Below are positions 8,979 through 49,000 of a stretch of 64,000 nt of DNA, piece after piece. The first letter of the stretch is position 1. Every line of letters starts with the position of its first letter. This DNA comes from Candidatus Omnitrophota bacterium (lineage in GTDB: Bacteria; Omnitrophota; Gorgyraeia; Gygaellales; JBFMHM01). The notes under the pieces were generated by a model that saw only the letters and a list, made by a program, of their open reading frames with translations, did not search any database and was not told the origin of the DNA. A program made the translations under genes and the position numbers. The stretch lies in the NCBI GenBank assembly GCA_040753015.1, contig JBFMHM010000001.1, positions 82,731 to 146,730 on the forward strand, written 5' to 3'.

Positions 8979-9089
8979 ATGAGTTGGGGATTGTTTGGAC
9001 AAATCGTATTACTAATAATTATATTTTCTTTTGTAAAAACATTTGTGAAATGTATGCACGACACCTGCTGCATAAAGTGTAAAAAATAA
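8979..9089 (+). CDS. putative small Cys-rich membrane peptide (36 aa)
   Basis: Hand-translated as MSWGLFGQIVLLIIIFSFVKTFVKCMHDTCCIKCKK. AGGAGG sits 5 nt upstream and a TATAAT at 8951. It is not in the ORF track (under 60 aa). Confidence 0.3.
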   Translation: MSWGLFGQIVLLIIIFSFVKTFVKCMHDTCCIKCKK

Positions 9090-9091
9090 TT

Positions 9092-9361
9092 ATGCAAATA
9101 AAAATTGAGCAATTAAGCGAAGAAGAATTGAAAAAGCGAAAAGTTCCATCTTGGCCGATATGGGAAAAAGAAATATCCACTTTTGACTGGCATTATGACG
9201 ATATGGAAGAGTGTTTATTTCTTGAAGGCGATGTTACCGTTACAACGAAAGACGGCAAAAGCGTAAATATTAAGCCCGGCGACTTCGTCACCTTCCCAAA
9301 AGGTTTATCTTGTAGTTGGAATATAAAGAAACCAGTTAAGAAATATTATAGGCTGTTCTGA
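9092..9361 (+). CDS. cupin-fold protein (DUF861/cupin_3 family)
   Basis: WPIWEKEISTFDWHYDDMEECLFLEGDVTVTTKDGKSVNIKPGDFVTFPKGLSCSWNIKKPVKKYY matches the cupin_3 pattern end to end. Confidence 0.7.
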   Translation: MQIKIEQLSEEELKKRKVPSWPIWEKEISTFDWHYDDMEECLFLEGDVTVTTKDGKSVNIKPGDFVTFPKGLSCSWNIKKPVKKYYRLF

Positions 9362-9375
9362 AGCCATGCCTAACT

Positions 9376-9539
9376 CTGCTAAGAAAAATATCGAGTGTTT
9401 TATAGCGAGAAATTTTTTTAGCGTTTAGAGTTTGGCATAGTTATTTTGAATTTGCAGTTGTACTTGTAGGGACAGGCCTGTGTGCCTGTCCGAAATAATG
9501 AGATTGAAGAATAATTAAGTTGTGTGTGCCCCCGGAATT
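9376..9539 (+). repeat. 165-nt repeated leader element, copy 1, with conserved hairpin GTAGGGACAGGCCTGTGTGCCTGTCC (9466-9491) and 3' CCGGAATT site
   Basis: About 80% identical to 10175-10340. The 5' and 3' thirds are near-identical and the centre has indels. It lies directly upstream of the CDS at 9573. Confidence 0.7.
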
Positions 9540-9548
9540 TCTTATAAT
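9529..9548 (+). promoter_or_regulatory. CCCCCGGAATT operator-like site abutting a -10 TATAAT
   Basis: CCGGAATT at 9532-9539 and TATAAT at 9543-9548. AGGAGG and the ATG follow at 9573. Confidence 0.45.
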
Positions 9549-9572
9549 CTAGTATTATCTGTAAGGAGGAAG

Positions 9573-9998
9573 ATGAGAAAACTAATTAAGCATAAGAATG
9601 TTTCAGAATCAACAGATTTAGCAAGTTTAGTTAATAAAATATATGAACAGTTGGTTAGTCTGGAGAAAAAAGTTGATACATTAATCAATCGGTCTTCAGT
9701 TAGCACCCATAATAGCGGTGATCGTTTCCAAAGGGCTAATTCGCATTTTAGGCGCTCTGATCGCTTTCAAGGGGCAAGATATGAGGAAAGACCCAGAGAA
9801 ATAAATTTTACGCAGGCGGTTTGCGCAGAATGTGGTAAAGAATGCGAAGTTCCTTTTAGGCCCACAGGAGATCGTCCAGTATATTGTAGCGATTGTTTTT
9901 CGGTGCGTAATGATTCTGGATCATCTAGAGGAAAATTCAATAATAATAAGAGAAAGGGTTCATTTTTCCGAAGAAGAAAAGAGCACTCTCGATCTTAA
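9573..9998 (+). CDS. zinc-ribbon protein, Arg/Lys-rich (CxxC-x17-CxxC)
   Basis: The start is revised to MRKLIKHKN, with AGGAGG 6 nt upstream; the track ORF begins at 9522. The sequence contains CAECGKECEVPFRPTGDRPVYCSDCF, RFQ/RR repeats and a basic tail. Confidence 0.5.
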   Translation: MRKLIKHKNVSESTDLASLVNKIYEQLVSLEKKVDTLINRSSVSTHNSGDRFQRANSHFRRSDRFQGARYEERPREINFTQAVCAECGKECEVPFRPTGDRPVYCSDCFSVRNDSGSSRGKFNNNKRKGSFFRRRKEHSRS

Positions 9999-10174
9999 TG
10001 TTGCTTGCTTGCTCGCCTCGCGGCGAAGCCGAGGGCCGGCAGGGAGGCAGGTGTTCCCGGAATTCTAGGATTAATAACCCGATGGCAAAGATAAAGCTAG
10101 ATTTGCACAACAAAAACTCCGGCCGAATCTTTGTGCATTTTAGGTTTTAGGCCGTTTTTCGGCCATGTCGAATT

Positions 10175-10340
10175 CTGCTAAGAAAAATATCGAGTGTTTT
10201 ATAGCGAGAAATTTTTCTAGCGATTAGAGTTCGACGAAGTTGCATTTGTAGGGACAGGCCTGTGTGCCTGTCCGAAATGATTGATATTCGGATGATGGAA
10301 TAATTAAGTGTCGTGTCCCCGGAATTAAATTTCCGGAATT
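10175..10340 (+). repeat. 165-nt repeated leader element, copy 2 (hairpin at 10248-10273; inverted CCGGAA-6-TTCCGG at 10319-10336)
   Basis: See copy 1. Tandem TTACCAAACAAA(R)TATAAT modules follow at 10352-10371 and 10409-10427, then AGGAGG and the ATG at 10460. Confidence 0.7.
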
Positions 10341-10459
10341 TCAAAAACCTATTACCAAACAAAAATATAATATCTAATAAATTGTTAGGTAAAAATAACT
10401 TGATTTTTTTACCAAACAAAGTATAATTTTATTAGTTAAATGTTTGGTAAGGAGGATGT

Positions 10460-10774
10460 ATGAGCGTTATTAAGGGTGTATTAAAAGAAGAGCTACAAAA
10501 TTCTCTCGATATGCTGAAGGGATATAAAAGAGAGATAGTCAAAATAAAAGGCTGTCTTGTTAGGAAAAAAGTTGGTAAACATTATTATTACTACTTGGCT
10601 AAGAGGCAAGGAAAAAAGATAAAGTTTACATACAAAGGTCCGATTTCAGAAGAGATAAGAAAAGCCTATACTCAGCAAAGAAAAATGCTTAATAAATATA
10701 AGAAATTATTACTACAGGTTAAAAATCAAATTAAATTTATAAGGAGAGCTCTGCGTGGAAAAGAAACAGCGTGA
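10460..10774 (+). CDS. hypothetical small basic protein, partner of the downstream nucleotidyltransferase-fold protein
   Basis: 104 aa, Lys-rich. It overlaps the next ORF by 20 nt, so the two are translationally coupled. Confidence 0.5.
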   Translation: MSVIKGVLKEELQNSLDMLKGYKREIVKIKGCLVRKKVGKHYYYYLAKRQGKKIKFTYKGPISEEIRKAYTQQRKMLNKYKKLLLQVKNQIKFIRRALRGKETA

Positions 10775-11453
10775 GTTATGCCTTGAAATATTAAGACGGT
10801 TTAATGAATCTGGTATACTTGAAAATTTTATTTTAATCGGTAGCTGGGCTGCATATTTCTATAATGAATATTTTTCAGGTACTTCGTATTTAGATCGCCT
10901 CGCTGTAAAAACCAGAGACATTGATTTCTTAATTGATAATCCTCGAAAAATAAAAAGAGATGTTAATATACCCAAGCTCCTTGAAGATTTAGGTTTTATT
11001 GTTATATATAAAGGCAGCGGAGGATATATAAAATTAGATCACCCTGATTTGCTACTTGAATTTTTATCTCCTGAATTAGGTAAAGGCACAGGCAAGCCAA
11101 TACCTCTACCAAAATTAGGAGTAAATGCTGTTGCGCTAAGATTCTTAAGTTTTTTATCTAGTAATACAATTGAAGTTAAGGTTGAGAATTTCTATGTAAC
11201 TTTACCTCACCCAGCTAATTTTGCCTTACATAAATTGATTATTTTCCAACGTAGGTTTAAAGAAGAAAAAGCGCTAAAAGATAGAAATACTGCGATTGAA
11301 GTTTTAAAAGCTTTGATTAATAAGGGCGAGTCAGATACAATTAAGCAAGTTTTTGATTCAATGCCTAAAAAATGGCAAAACAAAATAGTTAATGGCTTAG
11401 ATAAAAACCAAGATAAGAATATATTAATCATATTGCAAAAAATAATTAAATAA
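10755..11453 (+). CDS. putative minimal nucleotidyltransferase-fold protein
   Basis: LIGSWAAYFY...TRDIDFLID fits the pol-beta superfamily G[SG]x(n)DhD pattern. The assignment is tentative. Confidence 0.4.
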   Translation: MEKKQRELCLEILRRFNESGILENFILIGSWAAYFYNEYFSGTSYLDRLAVKTRDIDFLIDNPRKIKRDVNIPKLLEDLGFIVIYKGSGGYIKLDHPDLLLEFLSPELGKGTGKPIPLPKLGVNAVALRFLSFLSSNTIEVKVENFYVTLPHPANFALHKLIIFQRRFKEEKALKDRNTAIEVLKALINKGESDTIKQVFDSMPKKWQNKIVNGLDKNQDKNILIILQKIIK

Positions 11454-11463
11454 GAGTAAGTCA

Positions 11464-11547
11464 TGCAAATAAAAATTGAAAGATTAAGTTATAATGTGTT
11501 GATAGAATTAATGTTACGCAGAAACGACACTGGATTTCTATGCTAGA
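11464..11547 (+). pseudogene. truncated duplicate of the cupin gene 5' end
   Basis: atgcaaataaaaattga is a 17/17 match to 9092-9108, and attaag follows after 3 mismatches. It translates MQIKIERLSYN... and stops after 27 codons. Confidence 0.4.
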
Positions 11548-11678
11548 GAAAAAAGTGTTGCGTCAATTGCCAGGTAAAGGCCGCAGTGTGCATTACGATT
11601 TAGCCTGGCCAGAGAATAAATCGTGAAGAGGTAAAATTTAGTGTTAAAATAAAGGGGAAATAATTATAGTAGCTGTCC

Positions 11679-11731
11679 CCGGAATTTCCCGGAATTCCTA
11701 GATTGCTGCTTAGTTTTTCAAATGGTATAAT
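11679..11731 (+). promoter_or_regulatory. partial third copy of the leader-element 3' end (tandem CCGGAATT, GGAATTCC) plus extended -10 TGGTATAAT
   Basis: aataattatagtagctgtccccggaatttcccggaattcc parallels the 3' ends of copies 1 and 2. TGGTATAAT lies at 11723-11731, upstream of 11790. Confidence 0.5.
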
Positions 11732-11789
11732 AAAGAAAATTTGCTAGGCTTAATGAAAACAAAAACTTTCTTAAATTGGAAATAAAGTT

Positions 11790-12401
11790 ATGAGTGAAAT
11801 TATTTATATTCTCACAAATGAAGCGATGAGTGGCTATGTAAAAATCGGTAAAACAACCAATAATCTTGAGCAACGGGTTAGAGAATTGAGCGCGTCAACA
11901 AGCGTTCCATTGCCTTTTACGGTTTTTTATGCTTGCACAGTAAAAAATGCTCAATTTGTTGAACATCAACTTCACGATGCTTTTGATGATAATCGTGTCA
12001 ACCCAAAAAGAGAATTTTTCCGAGTCGCTCCAGAACGAGTAGTCGCGGCTCTAAAGCTTGCAGAAATTGAGAATATAACACCAAAGAAAGACTTTGTTGA
12101 ATCTAAGGAAGATCAGGCGGCATTAAATGCCGCAAGAAAAATAAGAAGTAGATTTAACTTCGAAATGGTAAAAATTCCCGTAGGAGCTGAATTGTATTTT
12201 AGTCGCGATGAAAGCAGTAAGGCAAAAGTCATTGATACGCGTACCGCCAATTCTATTGAATTTAACGGAAAAAAAACAAGTCTATCTCGTTCAGCCCAAA
12301 AAATACTCGGCTATCAATACGGTGTATCAGGCACAGATTACTGGATGTATGAAGGCGAGACGCTCGATGAGCGCCGCAGGAGATTTGAAAGCGGAAAATG
12401 A
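11790..12401 (+). CDS. T5orf172/MUG113 (GIY-YIG-like) domain protein
   Basis: The N-terminus IIYILTNEAMSGYVKIGKTTNNLEQRVRELS...PLPFTV...EHQLHDAF matches the T5orf172 domain pattern. Confidence 0.6.
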   Translation: MSEIIYILTNEAMSGYVKIGKTTNNLEQRVRELSASTSVPLPFTVFYACTVKNAQFVEHQLHDAFDDNRVNPKREFFRVAPERVVAALKLAEIENITPKKDFVESKEDQAALNAARKIRSRFNFEMVKIPVGAELYFSRDESSKAKVIDTRTANSIEFNGKKTSLSRSAQKILGYQYGVSGTDYWMYEGETLDERRRRFESGK

Positions 12402-12405
12402 TTTT

Positions 12406-13449
12406 ATGAAAACTAAATCTTTAAATAGAAACTTACACAAAGCAAGCCAAGCCAAAAAAGACGAGTTTTATACTCAACTTGCCGATATTGAAAATGAATT
12501 GAAATATTATAAAGATCAATTCCGCGGTAAAGTAGTTTTTTGCAACTGTGATGATCCTAGAGAAAGTAATTTCGTCAAATATTTCAGCATGAATTTTGAG
12601 CATTTAGGGCTAAAAAAATTGATAGCCACACATTATAAAGAAGCAAATTTATTTTCCCAAGAACCGCCTTATAAATTAGAATACACAGGCGATAAAAATG
12701 GTAATCGCACACCTGATCCAAGTGAGTTTATGACTGAGATGATAGGAACGGGCGATTTTCGTAGCGTGGAGTGTATTGAACTACTCAAAGAAGCGGATAT
12801 TGTTATGACTAATCCGCCATTTTCGCTGTTTCGTGAATATGTTGCACAGCTCGTGAAGTACAAAAAAAAGTTTTTGATTATAGGCAATACAAATTCACTA
12901 ACCTATAAAGAGATTTTTAAGCTAATTAAAGACAACAAGCTCCGTACTGGTTACACGAATTTTAATGTAGGAATGTTTTTTATTGTGCCAGACGATTGGG
13001 AGCATTTTCATCATATCGATGAAGATGGCAAGAAAATTGTGCGTGTCTCAACTTCGTGTTGGTTTACGAATCTTGTAGTTGAGAAGCATAAGCAAGATAT
13101 CACTCTTTATAAGAAATATTCACGTAAAGAATATCCAAAGTACTACAATTATGATGCAATTAACGTAGACAAATATACCGACATACCTTGCGACTATGAC
13201 GGTGCGATTGGTGTACCCATTACTTTCCTTGATAAATATAATCCGGAACAATTTGAGGTTATTGGTTTGGGTATATCTAATTCAGGGATAGAAATTGGAG
13301 TTAAACCATATAAAGAGGAACATAAAAAATACAGAAGAGAAGTTCAAAAAAGAGGTGCAGTTGATGGTGATTTATATATGATTAAAAATGGAATTGTTGA
13401 TGTTCCTTACGCTCGAGTTATTATAAAAAACAAGAAGGTGAAAAAATAA
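12406..13449 (+). CDS. N6-adenine DNA methyltransferase (EcoRI-methylase-like family, NPPF motif)
   Basis: The start is revised to MKTKSLN, 4 nt after the upstream stop; the track ORF begins at 12208 in an overlapping frame. The sequence contains DEFYTQ..., CNCDDPRESNFVKYF and DIVMTNPPF (motif IV). Confidence 0.7.
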   Translation: MKTKSLNRNLHKASQAKKDEFYTQLADIENELKYYKDQFRGKVVFCNCDDPRESNFVKYFSMNFEHLGLKKLIATHYKEANLFSQEPPYKLEYTGDKNGNRTPDPSEFMTEMIGTGDFRSVECIELLKEADIVMTNPPFSLFREYVAQLVKYKKKFLIIGNTNSLTYKEIFKLIKDNKLRTGYTNFNVGMFFIVPDDWEHFHHIDEDGKKIVRVSTSCWFTNLVVEKHKQDITLYKKYSRKEYPKYYNYDAINVDKYTDIPCDYDGAIGVPITFLDKYNPEQFEVIGLGISNSGIEIGVKPYKEEHKKYRREVQKRGAVDGDLYMIKNGIVDVPYARVIIKNKKVKK

Positions 13450-13450
13450 T

Positions 13451-14557
13451 ATGAAAATTGAACTACACAAAATTAAAATTCATAGAGTGATAGCGGGCTA
13501 CAAAGATAGCGCAGAAGAAGGCGTAGTGGCTTATGATGGTAAACTTGATATTCGTCCAAAATATCAGCGTGAATTTGTGTACAAGGAAAAACAACGTAAT
13601 GCCGTAATCGAAACCATCAAAAACAGCTTTCCACTGAATGTGATGTATTGGATGATCAGAGAAGATGGTGGCTACGAAATGCTAGATGGCCAACAGCGCA
13701 CTATCAGTATCGGTCAATATGTGAATGGCGATTTTTCACTGAACGACCGGTTTTTTCATAATCTGACCAAAGAAGAGCAAGATAAAATTTTGGATTATGA
13801 ATTGATGATTTACTTTTGCGAAGGCACGGATAAAGAGCGATTAGACTGGTTCACGGTCATCAATACATATGGGGAAAAAGTGAACGAACAAGAAATTCGC
13901 AACGCGGTTTACACGGGGCCATGGCTCTCGGATGCTAAATTAAAGTTTAGCAAATCAAATTGCGCGGCATATCTTTTGGCAAATGACGGTGGGCAATTGG
14001 TAAACGGTTCGCCGATCCGCCAGGAATACTTAGAAACTGCACTTTCTTGGATAAACGATGGCAAAATAGAAGATTATATGGCCAAGCATCAGCATAAAAA
14101 AAATGCTGATGAATTATGGCAATATTTTCAGGATGCTATTGCATGGACAAGAAAGACGTTTACGCATTACCGCAAGGAAATGAGTAGTGTACAATGGGGC
14201 GAATTGTATAACCAATTCAAAGACAAAAAACTCAACGCCAATAAACTCGAAGCTGAGATTAAAGAGCTAATGCAAGACGAAGATGTTACCAAGAAATCAG
14301 GTATTTATCCATATGTTTTAACGCGGCAAGAAAAACATCTCTCAATACGCGCGTTTAATGACAAAATGAAGCGCGAAGCATACGAAAGGCAAAAAGGTAT
14401 TTGCCCACACTGCAAAAGCGAGAACAAGAAAAAGAAATGGGAAATTGAAGAAATGGAGGCCGACCATATTACCCCTTGGCATGAGGGTGGAAAGACAACC
14501 ACAGAAAATTGTCAAATGTTATGCAAGCAATGCAACCGGACTAAGTCTGGAAAATAA
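13451..14557 (+). CDS. DUF262 (ParB/GmrS-like) - HNH fusion endonuclease
   Basis: The N-terminal DUF262 hallmarks are QREFVY, LDGQQRT and DWFTVINTYGEKVNEQEIRNA. The C-terminal canonical HNH is CPHCKSE...ADHITPWHEGGKTTTENCQMLCKQCNRTK. It starts 1 nt after the methyltransferase stop. Confidence 0.7.
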   Translation: MKIELHKIKIHRVIAGYKDSAEEGVVAYDGKLDIRPKYQREFVYKEKQRNAVIETIKNSFPLNVMYWMIREDGGYEMLDGQQRTISIGQYVNGDFSLNDRFFHNLTKEEQDKILDYELMIYFCEGTDKERLDWFTVINTYGEKVNEQEIRNAVYTGPWLSDAKLKFSKSNCAAYLLANDGGQLVNGSPIRQEYLETALSWINDGKIEDYMAKHQHKKNADELWQYFQDAIAWTRKTFTHYRKEMSSVQWGELYNQFKDKKLNANKLEAEIKELMQDEDVTKKSGIYPYVLTRQEKHLSIRAFNDKMKREAYERQKGICPHCKSENKKKKWEIEEMEADHITPWHEGGKTTTENCQMLCKQCNRTKSGK

Positions 14558-14561
14558 AAGC

Positions 14562-15260
14562 ATGAATTCATTTAAAGGCGTTATCTATACGGTTTTGAAA
14601 AAAATTAAAAATTTGATTATTGGATTTTTAAGATGGGTGCATAGAGTAGCAAAATTTCTAAATAAACACGCAAAGATTAGGTGGCCAGAGACCATGATGG
14701 CTGTGGCTAATATAATTCTTGCAATAGTAACTTGGCGTTATGTCGTTCTTACTAAATACATCGTTCAGCAACAAATAAATCAAACTAACCAACAAAAAGA
14801 GCAATTTGAGTTGGTTAATAGAGCTAAGGTGTGGTTTCAAGGCTTATCAGGAGATATACAAAAAGGAAATTTATTATTTATTAATTCTGGCAATTTGCCA
14901 GCAAAATATTGTAAATTTTTATGGAGAATAGTTAAAGTAGATGGTGAACAAGTTTTACAAGAATTTAAGGAACAAAGTAATATAATCAAAATTGATAGCC
15001 TTGATCAAGAAGAGATTTTTTCACTCCCATATTCTTCGAATTTTAGTCTAAAAGATCAGATTGTTTTTCTTGTTGTCGTATGGAAATATAGTGGAAAAGG
15101 AATAGAAGATTCGACCCCAAAAGAAAAAGTTCTACTATGGAATATTGACCAGAAGCCTAATGCAGCATGGGTTATTCCATCTTCTAGTATGGGCTCGAAT
15201 CATGTAAGCACACTGGATGCTATAAAGAAAGAATTAAGATCTGCTTTAGATAAAGAATAA
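14562..15260 (+). CDS. hypothetical membrane-anchored protein
   Basis: The start is revised to MNSFKG, 4 nt after the HNH stop. One TM helix (MMAVANIILAIVTWRYVVL) is followed by a 150-aa soluble domain. Confidence 0.45.
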   Translation: MNSFKGVIYTVLKKIKNLIIGFLRWVHRVAKFLNKHAKIRWPETMMAVANIILAIVTWRYVVLTKYIVQQQINQTNQQKEQFELVNRAKVWFQGLSGDIQKGNLLFINSGNLPAKYCKFLWRIVKVDGEQVLQEFKEQSNIIKIDSLDQEEIFSLPYSSNFSLKDQIVFLVVVWKYSGKGIEDSTPKEKVLLWNIDQKPNAAWVIPSSSMGSNHVSTLDAIKKELRSALDKE

Positions 15261-15350
15261 GATAACAAGCAATAAGTAAAAAAGTAAAATGGGGGCGTTT
15301 CTAATTTTTAAAAAAATAAACGTCCCAATTTTCTAACACCGTTTTATTTT

Positions 15351-16268
15351 ATGTTTGATCAAGTTAATATTCCAGATGAATTTATTACAGAAAAAATTTC
15401 TTGGGAAGAAATAAAGAAGATCTTTGGTAAATTTAGTGATCAATGGATTTTTCGCGGGCAAAGTAATGATAGCATTCCAGAATCTATTCTTTATCGAAAT
15501 GAAAAATGTCTCAATTACGGCTCCGAAGAAGAAAGAGCTATAAACGATTTTAAAAATGAGATTGATAAGTATCCCGGTGTCGAATGTAGCCCGGTAACAA
15601 AAGTTGATTGGTTATGTTTGATGAGGCATTACGGCTATCCTAGTAGAATTCTAGATTGGACGAGTTGTCCGTACATAGCAACTTTTTTCGCATTTAAAGA
15701 AGATAAAATTAATTCTGGAGCACCTGTTGTTTGGGCTGTAAACAAGGATTGGCTAAAATATTGGGCTATTCGTAGAATAAAAACTATAGAAAAATATATA
15801 AATTGCACAGAAACTGATTTAACAACAGATGAATGTTTCAATGATATATTTATATTTAATAATGATTATTTGAATTTTGTATATCCATTTTTACCGAGTA
15901 GTAATATTTCAAAATCAGGTAGAATCTCTAAACAAAAATCAGTATTTTTGTGCCCAGGAAATCCCATTAGGGATTTTATGACTAACCTATGTTGCGAGTT
16001 TAGTTCACAAAATAATATAAACAGAGAAATATCCGATGGTTTGATTAGTCAATTCACAGATGAAAAAAATAAATATATTTATAAATTACGAATTAATATT
16101 GAAGATAAAGATAAAATCATAAATGATCTGAAAAATAAAAATATAACAGAGCACAGTCTATCTTTAAATCCACATTCTCTTGATGAAGCCGGTAAAAAAT
16201 TTAAAGAAATGGCACTAAAAAGAGACGAATATTGGCGTAATTGGCTATCAGAAGAAATAAATATATGA
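15351..16268 (+). CDS. FRG-domain protein
   Basis: WIFRGQSNDSIPESILYR...DWLCLMRHYGYPSRILDWTSCPYIATFFAF contains the FRG-domain signature motifs. Confidence 0.6.
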   Translation: MFDQVNIPDEFITEKISWEEIKKIFGKFSDQWIFRGQSNDSIPESILYRNEKCLNYGSEEERAINDFKNEIDKYPGVECSPVTKVDWLCLMRHYGYPSRILDWTSCPYIATFFAFKEDKINSGAPVVWAVNKDWLKYWAIRRIKTIEKYINCTETDLTTDECFNDIFIFNNDYLNFVYPFLPSSNISKSGRISKQKSVFLCPGNPIRDFMTNLCCEFSSQNNINREISDGLISQFTDEKNKYIYKLRINIEDKDKIINDLKNKNITEHSLSLNPHSLDEAGKKFKEMALKRDEYWRNWLSEEINI

Positions 16269-16284
16269 GAGAGGCGGGAGACTG

Positions 16285-17037
16285 ATGACCCAATATTATA
16301 ACTCAAAACGAAAATATAATTTGTATACGCCAAACGGCGCGGAGGCGTATAAACTTAGCCGCTCGCAAATTGAGCTTTACATAAATTGCCCAAGATGTTT
16401 TTATCTCGATAGAAAACTTGGTGTGGGAAGACCGCCGGGGTTTCCTTTTGCCTTAAATAGCGCAGTCGATATCCTTCTTAAAAAAGAATTTGACCTATTG
16501 CGGGCAAACGGCGAGGCTCACCCGTTAATGAAAAAATATAAAGTAGATGCAATTCCTGCAAAACACCCTGACCTTGAAGATTGGCGAAATAATCGAAAGG
16601 GAGTGCAATATTTGCATAAGCCGACTAATTTTCTTATTACTGGCGCAATTGACGACTTATGGGAAAACTCCGCTAAAGAATTTATCGTTGTGGATTATAA
16701 GTCTACTGCGAAAGCAGAAGAAATTGTTGAGCTTAAAGAAGACTGGCAAGATTCATATAAACGCCAAATGGAAATATATCAATGGCTTATTCGTCAAAAT
16801 GGGCATAAAGTATCCAACACAGGTTATTTTGTATATTGCAACGGGAAAATAGGCCAAGATAAGTTTGACGGAAAACTTGAATTTGATATTGCGCTAATTG
16901 CACACGTAGGCAAGGACGATTGGATAGAAGGCGTTATTAAGAATATCCACTGCTGCTTGTCTAAAGACGAAATACCGCCTGCTGATAAAAACTGCGACTA
17001 TTGTGCTTATCGTGAATCAGCCAATATGGTTCGTTAA
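16285..17037 (+). CDS. PD-(D/E)XK nuclease, Cas4/RecB-like, with Cys clusters
   Basis: The N-terminus has CPRC and the centre has GAIDDL...VVDYKST (D..D/E.K). The C-terminus carries HCC...CDYC, a possible 4Fe-4S site as in Cas4. Confidence 0.55.
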   Translation: MTQYYNSKRKYNLYTPNGAEAYKLSRSQIELYINCPRCFYLDRKLGVGRPPGFPFALNSAVDILLKKEFDLLRANGEAHPLMKKYKVDAIPAKHPDLEDWRNNRKGVQYLHKPTNFLITGAIDDLWENSAKEFIVVDYKSTAKAEEIVELKEDWQDSYKRQMEIYQWLIRQNGHKVSNTGYFVYCNGKIGQDKFDGKLEFDIALIAHVGKDDWIEGVIKNIHCCLSKDEIPPADKNCDYCAYRESANMVR

Positions 17038-17045
17038 AAGCGATA

Positions 17046-17525
17046 TTGCAAATGAATAAAATCAAAAAATATTTATGTTGGTTGGGTGGTGGCATAGCCA
17101 CTGTTCTTTGGTATATCTTTGCCGAAGGATGGCTTATTTTAATGGTTGACTTATTCGGGTTTTTTGGTTCAACGATAATCGTAACATTAGTTACGGTTAT
17201 TTTATCATGGCTTATTATCTATGCATCTAAAAACTCTAGTAAACTTGATCGCCTGCAGAATTGGTTAGTAGGCAAAGAAGGCGACCTATCTAAAAAAGCG
17301 CAAGCAGCAATGAAAAGCGGTAAGATATTAGTTGTAGCTAATACGGCAATTTTTTTAGGGCCAATGGTTGCTACATTTTTGATGCTTATGATGGGAATCA
17401 AAGCTAAGAAAGTTTATATTTATTCTATTTTTTGTGCTTTACTATGCGCAATTGTCTGGTGCGGGCTTTACTCGGGCATATTTTGGGAAATTCATAAAAT
17501 ATTTCACAAACCACCAATTACATAA
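17046..17525 (+). CDS. hypothetical small membrane protein (3-4 TM helices)
   Basis: 159 aa. It starts 8 nt after the upstream stop and is hydrophobic throughout. Confidence 0.5.
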   Translation: MQMNKIKKYLCWLGGGIATVLWYIFAEGWLILMVDLFGFFGSTIIVTLVTVILSWLIIYASKNSSKLDRLQNWLVGKEGDLSKKAQAAMKSGKILVVANTAIFLGPMVATFLMLMMGIKAKKVYIYSIFCALLCAIVWCGLYSGIFWEIHKIFHKPPIT

Positions 17526-17527
17526 AA

Positions 17528-17683
17528 ATGCAAACCATTACTGCAAAAGAAATGAGAAAGTTAGATGCTTTGGCGACAAGCCGATACGGAATTCCCAGCT
17601 TGATTCTGATGGAAAATGCGGGAAGATCAGCCAAAGAAGAAGCCTTAAAGATGCTACCAAAAAATGCGCCAAGAAAACAGTAA
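17528..17683 (+). pseudogene. truncated N-terminal fragment of NAD(P)H-hydrate epimerase (nnr/yjeF_N)
   Basis: MQTITAKEMRKLDALATSRYGIPSLILMENAGRSAKEEALKML matches the YjeF_N start pattern (T..EMR..D..A....GIP...LMENAG). It stops at codon 52, before the GxGNNGGDG motif. Confidence 0.45.
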
Positions 17684-17785
17684 CCTTTGGCTTATTGAAA
17701 AAAGGCTTGATTAAAAAACAAGCAAATAAATTTACCGGTGGGGTAGTAGTTGGAGATATTTCCCTCCCACAAAATTAAAGGGGCT

Positions 17786-36635: not shown

Positions 36636-36743
36636 GCCCCCGTAGCTTCAGCCAAAGGCTGATAGGATAGACTAAGTTATGCCCCCGTAGCTTCAGCCAA
36701 AGGCTGATCCGCCTCTGGCGGACAATAGGATAGACTAAGTTAT
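36636..36743 (+). repeat. two tandem partial copies of the tRNA-Arg 5' half with palindromic inserts (45-nt and 63-nt units)
   Basis: Unit 1 (36636-36680) reads GCCCCCGTAGCT, then the hairpin TCAGCCAAAGGCTGA, then TAGGATAGACTAAGTTAT. Unit 2 (36681-36743) is the same plus an extra hairpin, TCCGCCTCTGGCGGA. The tRNA acceptor, D-stem and D-loop parts are identical to the downstream tRNA. Confidence 0.7.
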
Positions 36744-36816
36744 GCCCCCGTAGCTCAATAGGATAGAGCAGCGGTTTCCTAAACCGCGCGCGGGCGTTCG
36801 AATCGTCCCGGGGGCA
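36744..36816 (+). tRNA. tRNA-Arg (anticodon CCT)
   Basis: Folded by hand. Acceptor GCCCCCG/CGGGGGC, D-arm GCTC-AATAGGATA-GAGC, anticodon arm GCGGT-TTCCTAA-ACCGC, a 4-nt variable loop, T-arm GGGCG-TTCGAAT-CGTCC and discriminator A. No CCA is encoded. Confidence 0.8.
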
Positions 36817-36878
36817 CATAAATACAGAATTAAGAGTTAAGAAATAAGAATTAAGATAAAATCAAATACAAATAATTT

Positions 36879-45730: not shown

Positions 45731-46033
45731 TTAAGTAATAATAGCAATTTGAATTAGTGATAAATCAATACCACCTGTAGGCTCTACTGAAGCCATTTTG
45801 GTACCAGATTGACCTGGATTTGGTAAGGCTTTTTGGGCTTGATTGGCTATAATTTCTAGTGCTTCTTGACCGCTAGGATTACCCGCAACCAACTGCGCAG
45901 TATCCGGCTTAACCCCGGCTTTAAGAAGTTTGGTTATAGCTAGATTCGTAAACATATTAATAAATTGTTTTATATCCTTTCCTAGCACAAGTATCTGCCT
46001 GGTCAGGAGCGCCGGGGGTGACGTGCCAGTCAC
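45731..46033 (-). CDS. hypothetical ORF overlapping the 3' end of the giant gene (possibly a frameshifted continuation)
   Basis: 100-aa ORF that overlaps 45957-51140 by 77 nt in another frame. No motif is recognised. Confidence 0.2.
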   Translation of the reverse strand: MTGTSPPALLTRQILVLGKDIKQFINMFTNLAITKLLKAGVKPDTAQLVAGNPSGQEALEIIANQAQKALPNPGQSGTKMASVEPTGGIDLSLIQIAIIT

Positions 46034-49000
46034 GACCCTCTTTACCTCTGTTAAAGAATTGTTGAGTTAGGCGGATGATTTGATAGTGATCTAGGTCTGT
46101 ATTTTCAAGTAATTCGTGGAGGATATATTCGTCAATTAAGTCATTTGGTAAACCATTCACTCCCTCCCTTTCACTTAAATATTGTATTAGATTAATTGCA
46201 AGAGCACTTTCAGCGCCTAAGAAGTAACGGTTAGGGCTTTCTACTTCGGCGTTAAACCAGTTAAATGGACAAGTTTCAGCTTCAGGCAGACCGAAGGCCT
46301 CGCCAGTTTTTAGTGGCGGGCCGCGTAAGCGATTGAGTAAACCTTGCGCGTCTTGTTGTGACATGCCTGCGTTGATCAATAAAGCTTCTATTTCAGCCCC
46401 TCTGTTATCCAACAACGCCTGTATTCGCCTATGCGCTAAAACAACAACTTCGCGGTTATCTTGTGCTACTTGGCTTGAGTTTGCCTTGATTGCTTCCCTC
46501 TTCCGCGCAAGTTCCTCTTCGCTGTAGCCACGCGATATTTCGCCGGTAGGAGTTTTAGTCCTCGCGTTATTAATATCGCGAATTATTCTCTCTATATCAT
46601 TTCTGACTTCCCTAGAACCTCGATTAAAAGCTGTTTCTAATGCAGGTAATGCTACTTTGCCGATTTTAATAAGGGATTCGATCGCAGAGTCGCGAACAGT
46701 AGGATCTTTCAAACACTCAATTAAAGACTCAACTGCTGGCCGACCGGTTTTAATAAGTGCTTCTCTGGCGTTATAGCGGACAGACCCATCCTCATCCTTC
46801 AAACATTTAATCAAAGGCTCAACTGCACGAGGATCGCCGATTTCGCCAAGGGCTTTGATAGCGGATTGACTGAGCAAATTGTTATCATATCTCAAGCATG
46901 CAATCAGACGCTCGACTGCTGGCCGACCAATTTTAATAAAGGCCTTAACGGCAGCTTGACGAACATTTTTATCCTCATCTCTCAGACACACAATTAGAGG
47001 ATCGACTGCCGGCTGGCCAATTTTAGCAAGGGCCTGGGCAGCTGCGTGGCGGATATCTTCGTTTTCATCTCTTAAGCACGTAATTAACGGTTCGACTATC
47101 AATGGATGACGACTCTCGCCAAGATTACGAATAATAGATTTGCGATCTGTTTCATCATCGGGATTAAGAAAACTGACCTGCCTTGCAACATCTTCTGGCA
47201 TCCCCAAATTACTTAAAAGTGTAATTAACCTACCCGTATCTATCATTAGATTTAGGAGATGAGGCGCATTAACTCTAGTAAAATCCAAATTAGTATGTGA
47301 TAATATATTGATTAAATTTCTACGCCAAGTAGCCCATTGTTCAATTTCTGGATTAAATGAGCGTTTTAATAATTGTAATAAATGTTTGTCCATAAGTTTT
47401 CGAGCTTCATCAGTACTTATCGCAGCTTCGGCATACGCAATTAAATCATTCACAACGTATGCATTACCTCTTTGCGCTAGAATGACAAGGATATCTTCTA
47501 TGTCATCCTTTGCCCGGGAAAGCCGCCATAATCTTTTACACTGTTCCTCTGTAAAATTTTTAGGATGATGTTCTGCTATTTGTCTAAGGCTAGTAGATAT
47601 TTCAGCGCTATATTTTGTAGTTTCTTGTTTATGTAGTCGGATAATTTGTAGTACCTTACGCATAGTATTTTTCGACTCTATTAACTCTAGGTATTCCAAC
47701 ATTACATCAATTGCCTTTAACCTCCCCAACTCAGCAATTGCATCTTTGCGCGCTTGATCTAAGTCAGTGCGTAAAGCAATAAGCACACGAAAGTCTGCTT
47801 TTAGTTTATGCCAATTATCATCAGTAGTTTCGATGATTTGAGCACATCTTTTAACTGCTTGCTCTCTTTGGCCTTTAGTCAAGTCGGCTGCAAGTAACAC
47901 GCCAGTTAGCTGGAATTCAAGCTCTGTGTTATATTCTTGAGGCCGTGTTTTAATAAGCGCCTCATGGAGTTCTCTTGCTTGATCTAGCGCTTCTACTGCC
48001 GGGCCGAGAAGAATACGTTCTGCTAATCTGCGTGAGTCTTGATCATATAGCTGTTGATTATGAACCATAACATCAAGCGTGCCTACTGCTTTAGGCTGGT
48101 TTATTCTAGCTAAGAGCAATGATAAAAATTCAACGCATCTTATTTTATCCGATAAGTCATAACCAGCTACAGCTAATCTAGGCTGGTTTTGGCCTAGTGT
48201 ATTAACAAAAATAGCTATTGCCTGAGGTTCTTGTACGGTTATAAGCTCTACCAAAAGATCAAAAGCAACAATGCCTTTATCTTTGGCAAAGCCTGCTAGT
48301 GCCTTAACAACATCTGCTGGTAGACGGCCAAGCATACATATATCCGAGACTCTTCTTAGTTCTCTTGCGTATATCTGTTGCGGTGAGTCACTATCTGTTG
48401 TTCTTGCTATAGCTGCAGCACTGGCTTGTTGTTTTAATTCTTGCAGCTTATTATAACTTCTACTAAGTTCAGTTTGTATTGCTTCTATGTCATCAATACT
48501 CTTTTGAAAGCTTATAGTTTGTGTTTGGCCTCTAGTTATAGTTCCTTGTTGCCTTATTGTATCTACTAAAACAATAAGCCTAGCTACAGTAGCAAGCCCA
48601 GCAATCTTATCTTCAGTTTTCATATGGGTTCTAATAGCAGCAATGTAAGGCTTGTATCTTCTTGTTTCCATCATATGGGCAAGAACATAACAAGATAATG
48701 GTAGATTAGCAAGGACTTCTTCAGTAAGCATTCCTTTGTATTGAGCAAGGCAAAGCCTAGCCCTTGCAGAGTCTAAAAAACTTAGCCAAGTTATTAGGCT
48801 TACCACATCATCAGAAGTCCTGGCAAAGCTTTTCATAAATACTAAAGTTGCTGTTTCTGTATCTAAGTAAGTGAGTAATTCTAATACAGCTGGTTGTATA
48901 TCTAACTGTCTTGTGAGATTAATTAGCATCTTAACAGCTTGCTCTCTATCACGGTTAGTACTCATAAGCAGCGCTGTTTGGCTAAACGCTTCTTGTCTTT

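What the first reader, a model, noticed from the sequence alone, without database searches (positions are those of the whole stretch)
9092..17683. Inserted accessory island of about 8 kb with two candidate multigene defence operons
The block sits between the dnaE-cupin genes and the ferredoxin-dinB genes. Within it, the genes are tightly packed, with gaps of 1-16 nt. Their products are typical of phage-defence loci: a T5orf172 nuclease-like protein, an N6A methyltransferase, a DUF262-HNH nuclease, an FRG-domain protein, a Cas4-like PD-(D/E)XK nuclease, a nucleotidyltransferase-fold pair and small membrane proteins. The left edge carries a duplicate of the cupin gene start. That is a 17-mer exact match (23/26 positions over the aligned stretch) at 9092 and 11464. 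The right edge carries a truncated nnr (yjeF_N) pseudogene at 17528-17683. Both are expected of an insertion or recombination scar. The combination of genes does not match a named system that I recognise.
Basis: partly seen in the sequence, partly recalled or inferred. Interest (0 to 1): 0.8.

Follow-up and report, generated by a model that had tools for sequence, protein, structure and literature searches.

The report
Patchwork defence-gene cluster around R-M cassette
This 8-kb stretch of an uncultured Omnitrophota chromosome holds one ordinary two-gene restriction-modification cassette, of a kind shared with plasmids of many phyla, beside several unrelated single nuclease-type genes; it does not hold two new multi-gene defence systems, and its arrival as one inserted island cannot be shown.

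Summary
The two-operon reading does not hold.

- **R-M cassette:** the core (12412-14557) is a complete Type II R-M cassette, an EcoRI-family m6A methyltransferase followed by a DUF262-HNH endonuclease. The same M-then-R pair occurs at 50-60% identity on plasmids of Pseudomonadota, Bacillota, Actinomycetota and Bacteroidota, without the other window genes.
- **Other genes:** T5orf172 (PADLOC PDC-S57), FRG (PDC-S15), the Cas4-like PD-(D/E)XK nuclease and the 232-aa membrane protein each have homologues elsewhere with different neighbours.
- **"Nucleotidyltransferase pair":** this is one GSU2403-family protein split into two ORFs.
- **Packing:** tight gene spacing is genome-wide here, so it does not show shared function.
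- **nnr pseudogene:** it keeps both ends and lost its middle, so no insertion cut it.
- **17-mer repeat:** it is real (at 11463, not 11464) but weak evidence.
- **Stronger feature:** a structured direct repeat of about 195 nt brackets a CxxC zinc-finger gene.
- **Insertion:** the region has no integrase or flanking tRNA and no GC or tetranucleotide deviation (codon usage differs only slightly). No close relative exists for a synteny test, so insertion as one island stays untested. Horizontal origin is supported only for the R-M cassette.

The cluster is an ordinary defence-island-like patchwork.

The parts
9092..9361 (+). Cupin_3 (EutQ-like) gene, taken as the left flank. Its first 26 nt recur at 11463.
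   Evidence: Pfam Cupin_3 3e-23. It is 100% identical to an NCBI Omnitrophota MAG protein on a 417-kb contig. The nearest homologues (72%) lie in different gene contexts.
9346..9539 (+). Copy 1 of a direct repeat of about 195 nt. The structured core at 9362-9500 holds a long hairpin of about 75 nt and an 8-bp G+C hairpin. The repeat ends in a CCGGAATT box.
   Evidence: Fold z-score -3.7. Covariance model R1 scores 177 bits.
9567..9998 (+). CxxC-x17-CxxC treble-clef zinc-finger protein. The mechanical ORF starts at 9522, and ATG 9567 behind GGAGG is the likely start. The two repeat copies bracket this gene.
   Evidence: Pfam zf_Tbcl_2 4e-17. NCBIfam TIGR04272 5e-17. No PADLOC hit.
10145..10326 (+). 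Copy 2 of the direct repeat, with its structured core at 10161-10282. Two CCGGAATT boxes follow at 10319 and 10333.
   Evidence: Fold z-score -4.8. R1 scores 153 bits. Most substitutions between the copies preserve the hairpin.
10460..10774 (+). 104-aa ORF equivalent to the N-terminal domain of GSU2403-family proteins. It is the upstream half of a split gene.
   Evidence: BLASTP to residues 15-66 of the 340-aa Mesorhizobium pMLb protein, E 4e-6. No Pfam, PADLOC or PHROG hit.
10755..11453 (+). NTP_transf_8 (GSU2403-family) nucleotidyltransferase-fold protein. It overlaps the previous ORF by 20 nt in another frame, and AAGGAG precedes its GTG start.
   Evidence: Pfam PF12281 3e-23. Plasmid homologues are annotated as GSU2403 family. 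Sequence.
11463..11488 (+). 26-nt copy of the cupin gene start, matching 23 of 26 positions with a 17-nt exact core.
   Evidence: The similarity ends after 26 nt.
11790..12401 (+). T5orf172 (GIY-YIG-like) protein of 203 aa. It is a single-gene defence candidate and lies 10 nt upstream of the methyltransferase.
   Evidence: Pfam T5orf172 3e-19. PADLOC PDC-S57 2e-70 over its full length. Homologues are stand-alone on plasmids and in phages.
12412..13449 (+). EcoRI-family N6-adenine DNA methyltransferase carrying the NPPF motif. This is the M gene of the R-M cassette.
   Evidence: Pfam EcoRI_methylase 6e-126. PADLOC MTase_II 8e-114. Up to 62% identity to plasmid methyltransferases, and 60% over the full length.
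13451..14557 (+). DUF262 (DGQQR motif) + HNH endonuclease. This is the R gene of the cassette and starts 1 nt after the M stop codon.
   Evidence: Pfam GmrSD_N 2e-15 and HNH 7e-13. PADLOC REase_II PDLC03418 1e-126 over its full length. 52-59% identity to plasmid genes that sit next to an EcoRI-family methyltransferase.
14562..15260 (+). 232-aa single-pass membrane protein from a rare family. It is probably co-transcribed with the R-M genes, but no link to them is seen elsewhere.
   Evidence: No Pfam, PADLOC, NCBIfam or PHROG hit. Only 30 cluster representatives among 1.84 billion proteins. One hydrophobic segment. A 62%-identical homologue follows an ORF whose translation carries a GLSGAP motif, which I read as protease-like; no HMM was run on it.
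15261..15350 (+). The only spacer inside 11790-17778. It holds the inverted repeat GGGGCGTTT...AAACGTCCC followed by AATTTT, a likely transcription stop between the two gene strings.
   Evidence: Read directly from the sequence. The consensus scan did not list it because its loop is too long for that scan.
15351..16268 (+). FRG-domain protein of 305 aa. It is a single-gene defence candidate.
   Evidence: Pfam FRG 4e-19. PADLOC PDC-S15 1e-26. Plasmid homologues are annotated as FRG domain-containing proteins.
16285..17037 (+). Cas4-like PD-(D/E)XK nuclease of 250 aa. The family is very widespread and conserved. Whether it belongs to the accessory cluster or to the chromosomal backbone is unresolved.
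   Evidence: Pfam PDDEXK_1 2e-16. More than 8000 homologues, with the top 120 at 64-74% identity. The contexts vary: IS110 units, a type I R-M plus an OLD-type nuclease, a UvrD helicase, and a core-like string that includes dinB.
17046..17525 (+). Four-segment membrane protein of 157-159 aa. It ends 2 nt before the nnr start codon.
   Evidence: for the hydrophobic segments. Only a sub-threshold VTT_dom hit. No PADLOC or PHROG hit.
17528..17778 (+). nnr (YjeF_N) pseudogene. Codons 1-45 and the last 35 or so codons survive in two different frames, and about 138 codons between them are deleted.
   Evidence: tblastn against plasmids hits the N-termini of NAD(P)H-hydrate epimerase genes. Alignment to the Pusillibacter protein maps residues 1-45 to 17528-17662 and residues 184-218 to 17668-17772.

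Best explanation
The region is a patchwork of independent, mostly horizontally mobile nucleic-acid-targeting genes. It sits in a housekeeping neighbourhood of a Candidatus Omnitrophota chromosome: guaB-guaA-dnaE on the left and EFR1 ferredoxin-dinB-...-hisS-aspS-recO-polX on the right.

Only one complete, recognisable system is present, an orthodox Type II restriction-modification cassette.
- The EcoRI-family methyltransferase (12412-13449) would mark host DNA with m6A at its target site.
- The translationally coupled DUF262-HNH endonuclease (13451-14557) would cut incoming DNA that lacks the mark.
- This mechanism is inferred from family knowledge and was not tested here.

The genes around the cassette most likely act on their own and not as subunits of larger machines:
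- a T5orf172/GIY-YIG-like protein;
- an FRG-domain protein;
- a split GSU2403-family nucleotidyltransferase-fold protein;
- a rare single-pass membrane protein;
- a very widespread Cas4-like nuclease that may even be native backbone.

The left part of the region, carrying the CxxC gene and the GSU2403 unit, has been reshuffled by recombination between copies of a structured repeat of about 195 nt. The nnr gene on the right decayed through an internal deletion.
For: **R-M cassette**
- Full-length HMM matches to PADLOC MTase_II (8e-114) and REase_II (1e-126), and to Pfam EcoRI_methylase, GmrSD_N and HNH.
- The NPPF, DGQQR and HNH motifs are visible in the translations.
- In 14 of the 15 best plasmid hits to the endonuclease, the methyltransferase gene lies directly adjacent (coordinates).
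- The five inspected loci from different genera show M then R on one strand, overlapping or 1 nt apart.
- Identity to Bacillota and Pseudomonadota plasmids is 52-60%. The window's DnaE reaches only 58% within its own phylum and 44-53% elsewhere. This argues for horizontal transfer of the cassette.

**Independence of the other genes**
- The five inspected R-M plasmid loci have no gene annotated as T5orf172, GIY-YIG or FRG, and a tblastn of all window ORFs against three of them (L086-L088) found only the M and R genes.
- T5orf172 homologues are solitary or sit next to unrelated systems.
- PD-(D/E)XK homologues in 18 other loci share no neighbour with the window apart from dinB in one genome.
- A homologue of the 232-aa membrane protein follows a different, non-R-M gene.

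**Packing is genome-wide:** gaps of 25 nt or less, or overlaps, separate most of the flanking housekeeping genes.

**Split GSU2403 protein:**

**Repeat-mediated shuffling**
- establish the repeat.
- The hairpin is kept by compensatory changes in the two window copies and in a third copy in a related contig.
Against: - No gene was tested functionally, so the specificity and even the activity of the R-M pair are unknown.
- From 11790 to 15260 the four genes are separated by only 1-10 nt and are probably one transcript, so cooperation between T5orf172, the R-M pair and the membrane protein is not excluded.
- The sample of neighbourhoods is modest. It relies on plasmid records and about 20 metagenome loci, and FRG neighbourhoods were not examined directly.
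- The Cas4-like nuclease is found in mobile or defence contexts in three of the four best-resolved cases, so calling it backbone is uncertain.
Confidence: 0.7

Rival explanations
1. The block holds two new multi-gene defence systems whose parts work together: T5orf172 + methyltransferase + DUF262-HNH + membrane protein, and FRG + Cas4-like nuclease + membrane protein.
For: - The genes are co-directional, with gaps of 1-16 nt inside each string.
- A terminator-like spacer separates the two strings.
- All catalytic motifs look intact.
- Several of the genes hit defence-candidate HMMs.
Against: - The M+R pair occurs alone on plasmids of several phyla.
- T5orf172 homologues occur without it.
- None of the 18 other PD-(D/E)XK loci carries FRG or the 159-aa protein.
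- The same tight spacing continues into nnr, ferredoxin, dinB and other housekeeping genes, so spacing does not show functional linkage.
Confidence: 0.08
2. The region was not inserted at all. It is long-resident native sequence of this lineage, and only its gene families look defence-like.
For: - GC content and tetranucleotide usage of 9-17.5 kb lie within the window's normal range.
- There is no integrase or transposase, and no tRNA at the edges.
- NT8, mem232, FRG and mem159 have core-like codon usage.
- A PD-(D/E)XK homologue lies 2.5 kb upstream of dinB in a distantly related genome.
Against: - The R-M cassette is more similar to plasmid genes of other phyla (52-60%) than DnaE is to its nearest relative in the phylum (58%).
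- T5orf172, the methyltransferase and the endonuclease have the lowest codon-adaptation values and the highest GC3 of the set.
- The repeats, the gene-start remnant and the decayed nnr all point to local rearrangement.
Confidence: 0.15
3. The DUF262-HNH protein is a modification-dependent (Type IV, GmrSD/BrxU-like) nuclease and not the partner of the methyltransferase. The methyltransferase would then be an orphan enzyme or would serve another role.
For: - The N-terminal domain hits Pfam GmrSD_N (2e-15).
- The DUF262 + His-Me-nuclease architecture is that of the GmrSD, BrxU and SspE enzymes described in PMC12707154.
- There are weak PADLOC hits to mREase_IV (5e-5) and NsnA.
Against: - The best model by far is REase_II (1e-126, full length).
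- The C-terminal domain is a canonical HNH (PF01844), and no DUF1524 hit was returned.
- Strict M-R adjacency is conserved in 14 of 15 plasmids across phyla, as expected for a cognate pair.
Confidence: 0.05
4. The structured repeats and CCGGAATT boxes are recombination sites of an integrase-less cassette array, similar to an integron, that captured the CxxC, GSU2403 and T5orf172/R-M units one after another.
For: - Two repeat copies, 77% identical overall with blocks of 85-93%, bracket a single small gene 799 nt apart.
- The hairpin is kept by compensatory changes, and a third copy lies in a related contig.
- Six of the ten CCGGAATT sites in the window lie in the three spacers that precede the units.
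- All the genes are co-oriented.
Against: - No integron integrase or any other recombinase was found in the proteins scanned.
- Only two full copies exist, and the third spacer shares only about 40 nt with them.
- The genes from 11790 onward have no such elements between them.
- The hairpin could equally be a terminator or a REP-like element.
Confidence: 0.05

Closest known systems
Orthodox Type II R-M cassettes: EcoRI-family (Pfam PF13651) m6A methyltransferase + DUF262-HNH endonuclease, as annotated on plasmids such as Macrococcoides canis pMiCAN82a, Aeromonas caviae p1, Mammaliicoccus sciuri pH8C110P-cfr and Sulfitobacter indolifex pDSM14862_g
   Same: - Same two genes in the same order and on the same strand, with a 1-nt gap or a short overlap.
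- 45-60% amino-acid identity for the methyltransferase and 52-59% for the endonuclease.
- Full-length matches to the PADLOC MTase_II and REase_II models.
   Different: - The host is an uncultured Omnitrophota chromosome and not a plasmid.
- The recognition site is unknown.
- A T5orf172 gene and a membrane-protein gene flank the cassette here, and neither is present in the plasmid copies.
GmrSD / BrxU / SspE Type IV (modification-dependent) DUF262 nucleases
   Same: An N-terminal DUF262 (DGQQR) domain is fused to a C-terminal His-Me-finger nuclease (PMC12707154).
   Different: - The C-terminal domain is a canonical HNH and not DUF1524.
- The gene is always paired with a methyltransferase.
- The best HMM is a Type II endonuclease model.
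PADLOC defence candidates PDC-S57 (T5orf172) and PDC-S15 (FRG)
   Same: Strong HMM matches of 2e-70 and 1e-26, and a location beside an R-M system.
   Different: To my knowledge these are computational candidates without a demonstrated mechanism, and no functional study turned up in the paper search. Nothing here shows anti-phage activity.
CRISPR-associated Cas4 / RecB-family exonucleases
   Same: A PD-(D/E)XK core with a QxxxY motif, plus N- and C-terminal cysteine pairs.
   Different: - It scores 38 bits against a cut-off of 65 for NCBIfam cas4.
- No cas genes or CRISPR array lie in the window.
- It belongs to a very large stand-alone family found in many different contexts.
GSU2403-family nucleotidyltransferase-fold proteins (Pfam NTP_transf_8)
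   Same: An NTP_transf_8 domain together with the characteristic N-terminal domain.
   Different: - Here the protein is encoded as two overlapping ORFs of 104 and 232 aa instead of one of about 340 aa.
- The function of the family is unknown; the only paper found mentions the name once in another context.
Classical genomic islands and integron cassette arrays
   Same: A cluster of accessory-type, co-oriented genes with repeats at some unit boundaries.
   Different: There is no integrase, no tRNA target, no clear flanking direct repeats and no GC or tetranucleotide signature.

Membership tests
Type II restriction-modification system (separate M and R genes) | DNA methyltransferase with an N6-adenine catalytic motif | tested here: met
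   Pfam EcoRI_methylase 5.9e-126. PADLOC MTase_II 8e-114. NPPF is seen in the translation.
Type II restriction-modification system (separate M and R genes) | Endonuclease gene adjacent to the methyltransferase, with the pairing conserved in other genomes | tested here: met
   The gap is 1 nt in the window. The M gene is adjacent in 14 of the 15 best plasmid hits. The M-then-R order on one strand was confirmed in five inspected loci.
Type II restriction-modification system (separate M and R genes) | Endonuclease with a recognised nuclease catalytic domain and a match to curated Type II endonuclease models | tested here: met
   HNH 6.7e-13. PADLOC REase_II PDLC03418 1e-126, covering residues 1-368 of the protein and 1-372 of the model.
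Type II restriction-modification system (separate M and R genes) | Site-specific cleavage of unmethylated DNA that is blocked by the cognate methylation | not testable with these tools
   This needs enzyme assays or methylome data. A scan of palindrome avoidance in the 64-kb window gave no clear candidate site.
Type IV GmrSD/BrxU-type modification-dependent nuclease | DUF262 N-terminal domain | tested here: met
   Pfam GmrSD_N 1.9e-15.
Type IV GmrSD/BrxU-type modification-dependent nuclease | DUF1524-type C-terminal nuclease and no cognate methyltransferase | tested here: not met
   The C-terminus hits HNH PF01844 and no DUF1524 hit was returned. A methyltransferase is always adjacent.
PADLOC PDC-S57 / PDC-S15 single-gene defence candidates | Match to the candidate family HMM | tested here: met
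   PDC-S57 2.4e-70 for T5orf172 and PDC-S15 1.1e-26 for FRG.
PADLOC PDC-S57 / PDC-S15 single-gene defence candidates | Protection against phage | not testable with these tools
   There are no experimental data, and the literature search returned no functional study of either family.
CRISPR-associated Cas4 | Score above the curated cas4 threshold, and linkage to cas1/cas2 or a CRISPR array | tested here: not met
   TIGR00372 scores 38.2 bits against a cut-off of 65. No cas neighbours were found. No array is present in the window.
GSU2403-family nucleotidyltransferase-fold protein | NTP_transf_8 domain preceded by the family's N-terminal domain in one polypeptide | tested here: inconclusive
   Both parts are present but sit in two overlapping ORFs in different frames. 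The data do not distinguish a natural split from a frameshift.
Horizontally inserted genomic island | Integrase or transposase, tRNA or other att target, and flanking direct repeats | tested here: not met
   No recombinase domain was found in the proteins scanned. The only tRNA is at 36744. The 26-nt repeat encloses only 9092-11488, not the island.
Horizontally inserted genomic island | Composition that differs from the host | tested here: not met
   Tetranucleotide distance z-scores run from -0.5 to -1.0 across 8-18 kb. GC is 0.30-0.40, as in the flanks. Only a mild dip in codon adaptation is seen for T5orf172, the methyltransferase and the endonuclease.
Horizontally inserted genomic island | Absent from the same site in related genomes | not testable with these tools
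   The nearest relatives are too distant: DnaE 58%, cupin 72% and ferredoxin 71% identical, all in unrelated gene contexts.

The most novel reading that the evidence does not exclude
The structured repeats of about 140-195 nt and their CCGGAATT boxes bracket the CxxC gene and precede the GSU2403 and T5orf172/R-M units. They could be recombination sites of an integrase-less, integron-like cassette array that assembles accessory and defence genes next to dnaE in Omnitrophota.
Probability: 0.05. Interest if true: 0.6.

Novelty: new member of a known kind. Interest (0 to 1): 0.25.

Why it matters
The practical value is modest.

- **R-M cassette:** the work documents that a plasmid-borne Type II R-M cassette family (EcoRI-family methyltransferase + DUF262-HNH endonuclease) has reached the little-studied phylum Omnitrophota. 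I found no solved structure for this family and no paper that describes it.
- **Candidates for testing:** it lists uncharacterised proteins that cluster with the cassette and could be tested for anti-phage activity. These are T5orf172/PDC-S57, FRG/PDC-S15, the split GSU2403 nucleotidyltransferase and a rare membrane protein.
- **Caution for annotation:** in compact genomes, tight gene spacing should not be read as evidence for multi-gene systems.
- **Structured repeat:** this is the one feature that might repay a genome-wide follow-up.

Tried and rejected
- **Synteny test, three anchors, all without result.**
  - DnaE against species-representative genomes: the best hit is 58% identical and no relative has cupin after dnaE.
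  - Cupin homologues: the best is 72% identical and lies in another context.
  - EFR1 ferredoxin homologues: 62-71% identical with unrelated neighbours.
- **Exact look-up of the window's cupin in the contig index:** not on record.
- **Composition:** GC and tetranucleotide tests showed no deviation. Codon adaptation gave only a weak signal.
- **Recognition site:** a scan of palindrome under-representation was inconclusive. GAATTC and CAATTG are not avoided.
- **Rfam:** nothing was found in 9300-11850 even at E <= 1, and the whole window holds only tRNA-Arg.
- **Pfam on the two nnr fragments:** no hit because they are too short. This was solved with tblastn instead.
- **PDB sequence search:** nothing for the methyltransferase or the Cas4-like nuclease, and only generic HNH hits for the endonuclease.
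- **Third copy of the G+C hairpin at 50992:** it lies inside a 1727-aa ORF and matches only the short hairpin, so I treated it as unrelated.
- **Fusion partners of the 232-aa membrane-protein family:** no informative domains.
- **Literature on GSU2403 / NTP_transf_8:** none useful.

Full report
**Origin and layout**

The window comes from a metagenome-assembled Candidatus Omnitrophota genome. The cupin, the PD-(D/E)XK nuclease and the ferredoxin are each 100% identical to NCBI proteins from one 417,111-bp contig of such a MAG. All genes from guaB (2718) to beyond 44 kb lie on the + strand.

The flanks are housekeeping genes:
- IMPDH, GMP synthase and DnaE on the left;
- EFR1-type ferredoxin, DinB, a flavodoxin-like protein, a U32 peptidase, HisRS, AspRS, RecO and PolX on the right.

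**Checking the observation**

| Gene | Coordinates | Pfam | PADLOC |
|---|---|---|---|
| T5orf172 | 11790-12401 | 3e-19 | PDC-S57 2e-70 |
| EcoRI-family m6A methyltransferase | 12412-13449 | 6e-126 | MTase_II 8e-114 |
| DUF262 + HNH endonuclease | 13451-14557 | 2e-15 / 7e-13 | REase_II 1e-126 |
| FRG protein | 15351-16268 | 4e-19 | PDC-S15 1e-26 |
| Cas4-like PD-(D/E)XK nuclease | 16285-17037 | 2e-16 | Cas4 models, best 1e-11 |
| NTP_transf_8 protein | 10755-11453 | 3e-23 | none |

Two membrane proteins are also present, at 14562-15260 and 17046-17525.

The 17-mer occurs at 9092 and 11463 (not 11464) and extends to 23 of 26 matches. It is real but weak evidence. A third-order Markov model of the window yields about one exact 17-mer repeat per window by chance. 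Beyond 26 nt the two sequences are unrelated.

The nnr remnant is confirmed, but it is not a truncation:
- Codons 1-45 map to 17528-17662.
- The last 35 or so codons of the YjeF_N domain map to 17668-17772 in another frame.
- About 138 codons were therefore lost internally, and both gene ends are still in place.
- An insertion boundary would not leave this pattern.

- A CxxC-x17-CxxC zinc-finger gene lies at 9567-9998.
- A direct repeat of about 195 nt brackets that gene (9346-9539 vs 10145-10326; E 1e-37).
- The repeat folds into a long hairpin and a short G+C hairpin, with z-scores of -3.7 and -4.8.
- Most substitutions between the copies preserve pairing.
- A covariance model built from the two copies finds a third copy, at 43.5 bits, in the contig that carries the closest ferredoxin homologue.
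- Across the three copies, 5 of the 24 long-hairpin pairs show compensatory changes and every cell is paired. This rests on three sequences and on an alignment fitted to the model.
- The word CCGGAATT occurs 10 times against 2 expected, and six of those sites lie in the three spacers at 9532-11696.

**The R-M cassette**

tblastn against 72,556 plasmids finds the endonuclease at 52-59% identity and full length in Aeromonas, Mammaliicoccus, Macrococcoides, Chryseobacterium, Sulfitobacter, Variovorax, Gordonia and others.

Comparing coordinates with the methyltransferase search, 14 of the 15 best records have the EcoRI-family methyltransferase directly adjacent. The five annotated loci I inspected show M then R on one strand, overlapping or 1 nt apart, exactly as in the window. 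None of them has a gene annotated as T5orf172, GIY-YIG or FRG nearby.

This is a self-contained mobile Type II R-M module. Its cross-phylum identity equals or exceeds that of DnaE to its nearest relative within the phylum (58%), which supports horizontal transfer.

The DUF262 + His-Me architecture recalls the Type IV enzymes GmrSD, BrxU and SspE (PMC12707154). Three points favour an orthodox pair instead:
- the canonical HNH domain;
- the constant methyltransferase partner;
- the full-length REase_II match.

The specificity is unknown. A palindrome-avoidance scan was uninformative, and no solved structure exists for either protein family.

**The other genes**

- **T5orf172.** Plasmid homologues are annotated as GIY-YIG nuclease family proteins. 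They stand alone or lie beside unrelated systems, and phage homologues exist.
- **Cas4-like nuclease.**
  - It belongs to a very large family: more than 8000 homologues, with the top 120 at 64-74% identity.
  - Four neighbourhoods were resolved: an IS110-bounded repeated unit, the end of a type I R-M plus OLD-nuclease island, a position behind a UvrD helicase in a mobile region, and a core-like string of ABC-F, nuclease, MscS, M48 peptidase and DinB.
  - The last of these comes from a genome that shares other genes with this window.
  - In 18 other loci no neighbour is shared with the window apart from that dinB.
  - FRG and the 159-aa membrane protein are therefore not its partners, and the nuclease may even be part of the backbone.
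- **232-aa membrane protein.** It belongs to a rare family of 30 cluster representatives among 1.84 billion proteins. Its closest homologue follows an ORF whose translation carries a GLSGAP motif, which I read as protease-like without an HMM test.
- **104-aa ORF upstream of the NTP_transf_8 gene.** It aligns to the N-terminal domain of single-chain 340-aa GSU2403-family proteins. The 'pair' is one family member split in two. The split could be natural, since AAGGAG precedes the GTG start, or it could be a frameshift.

**Operon argument**

Overlaps or gaps of 25 nt or less are the rule between housekeeping genes across the window. The FRG, nuclease and membrane-protein string runs on without a break into nnr, ferredoxin and dinB. 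Spacing therefore says nothing about functional linkage.

The only internal spacer (15261-15350) carries an inverted repeat followed by AATTTT. T5orf172, M, R and the membrane protein are thus probably one transcript, and FRG starts another.

**Was it inserted?**

- No recombinase domain was found in the proteins scanned, and there is no nearby tRNA.
- GC and tetranucleotide usage are unremarkable.
- Codon adaptation is slightly low, and GC3 highest, for T5orf172, the methyltransferase and the endonuclease. It is core-like for NT8, mem232, FRG and mem159.
- Synteny could not be tested. The nearest DnaE, cupin and ferredoxin homologues are 58-72% identical and sit among different genes.

I conclude that horizontal origin is well supported for the R-M cassette only, and that a single 8-kb insertion is not demonstrated. 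The left part shows signs of repeat-mediated rearrangement.

**Verdict**

This is a defence-island-like patchwork built around an ordinary Type II R-M cassette. It is a new member of a known kind, and its interest is low to moderate. The most novel reading still open is that the structured repeats mark cassette boundaries of an integrase-less array. I rate that at about 5%.

Noticed in passing
window 9346-9539 and 10145-10326; L127 3215-3336 (- strand): A structured repeat element not present in Rfam. It has a hairpin of about 75 nt with compensatory substitutions, then an invariant 8-bp G+C hairpin. Two copies bracket the CxxC gene, and a third, diverged copy lies in an intergenic spot of a related Omnitrophota contig.
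   Followed up: partly
window 9532, 10057, 10319, 10333, 11679, 11689: The octamer CCGGAATT occurs 10 times in the window against 2 expected. Six of the sites cluster in the three spacers upstream of the CxxC, GSU2403 and T5orf172 units, partly as tandem or inverted pairs. It may be a regulator-binding site.
   Followed up: partly
window 36636-36743, just upstream of tRNA-Arg(CCU) at 36744-36817: Two tandem partial copies of the 5' part of the tRNA gene (GCCCCCGTAGCTTCAGCC...ATAGGATAGACTAAGTTAT) precede the intact tRNA. This could be a scar of repeated integration or excision, or a duplication.
   Followed up: no
L092/L093 (JGI Ga0222697_1000163) and L094: A 7.26-kb unit occurs at least three times in tandem in one metagenome contig and once in another sample. 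It carries an IS110 transposase, a Cas4-like nuclease 71% identical to the window's, a PNKP-like HAD, a 324-aa protein, a PLD nuclease and a TPR protein. It looks like a mobile defence-type cassette.
   Followed up: no
window 8979-9089: A 36-aa hydrophobic, Cys-rich ORF (MSWGLFGQIVLLIIIFSFVKTFVKCMHDTCCIKCKK) with a strong GGAGG ribosome-binding site lies between dnaE and the cupin gene. The mechanical ORF list does not show it because it is too short.
   Followed up: no
window 45957-51140 (- strand): A 1727-aa secreted protein with HEAT-like repeats near its C-terminus gives the strongest tetranucleotide deviation in the window (z up to 3.8). That is far more deviant than the proposed island.
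   Followed up: no
window 10460-11453: The GSU2403-family gene is split into two ORFs that overlap by 20 nt in different frames. This could be an assembly frameshift, a pseudogene or a genuine two-gene variant.
   Followed up: partly
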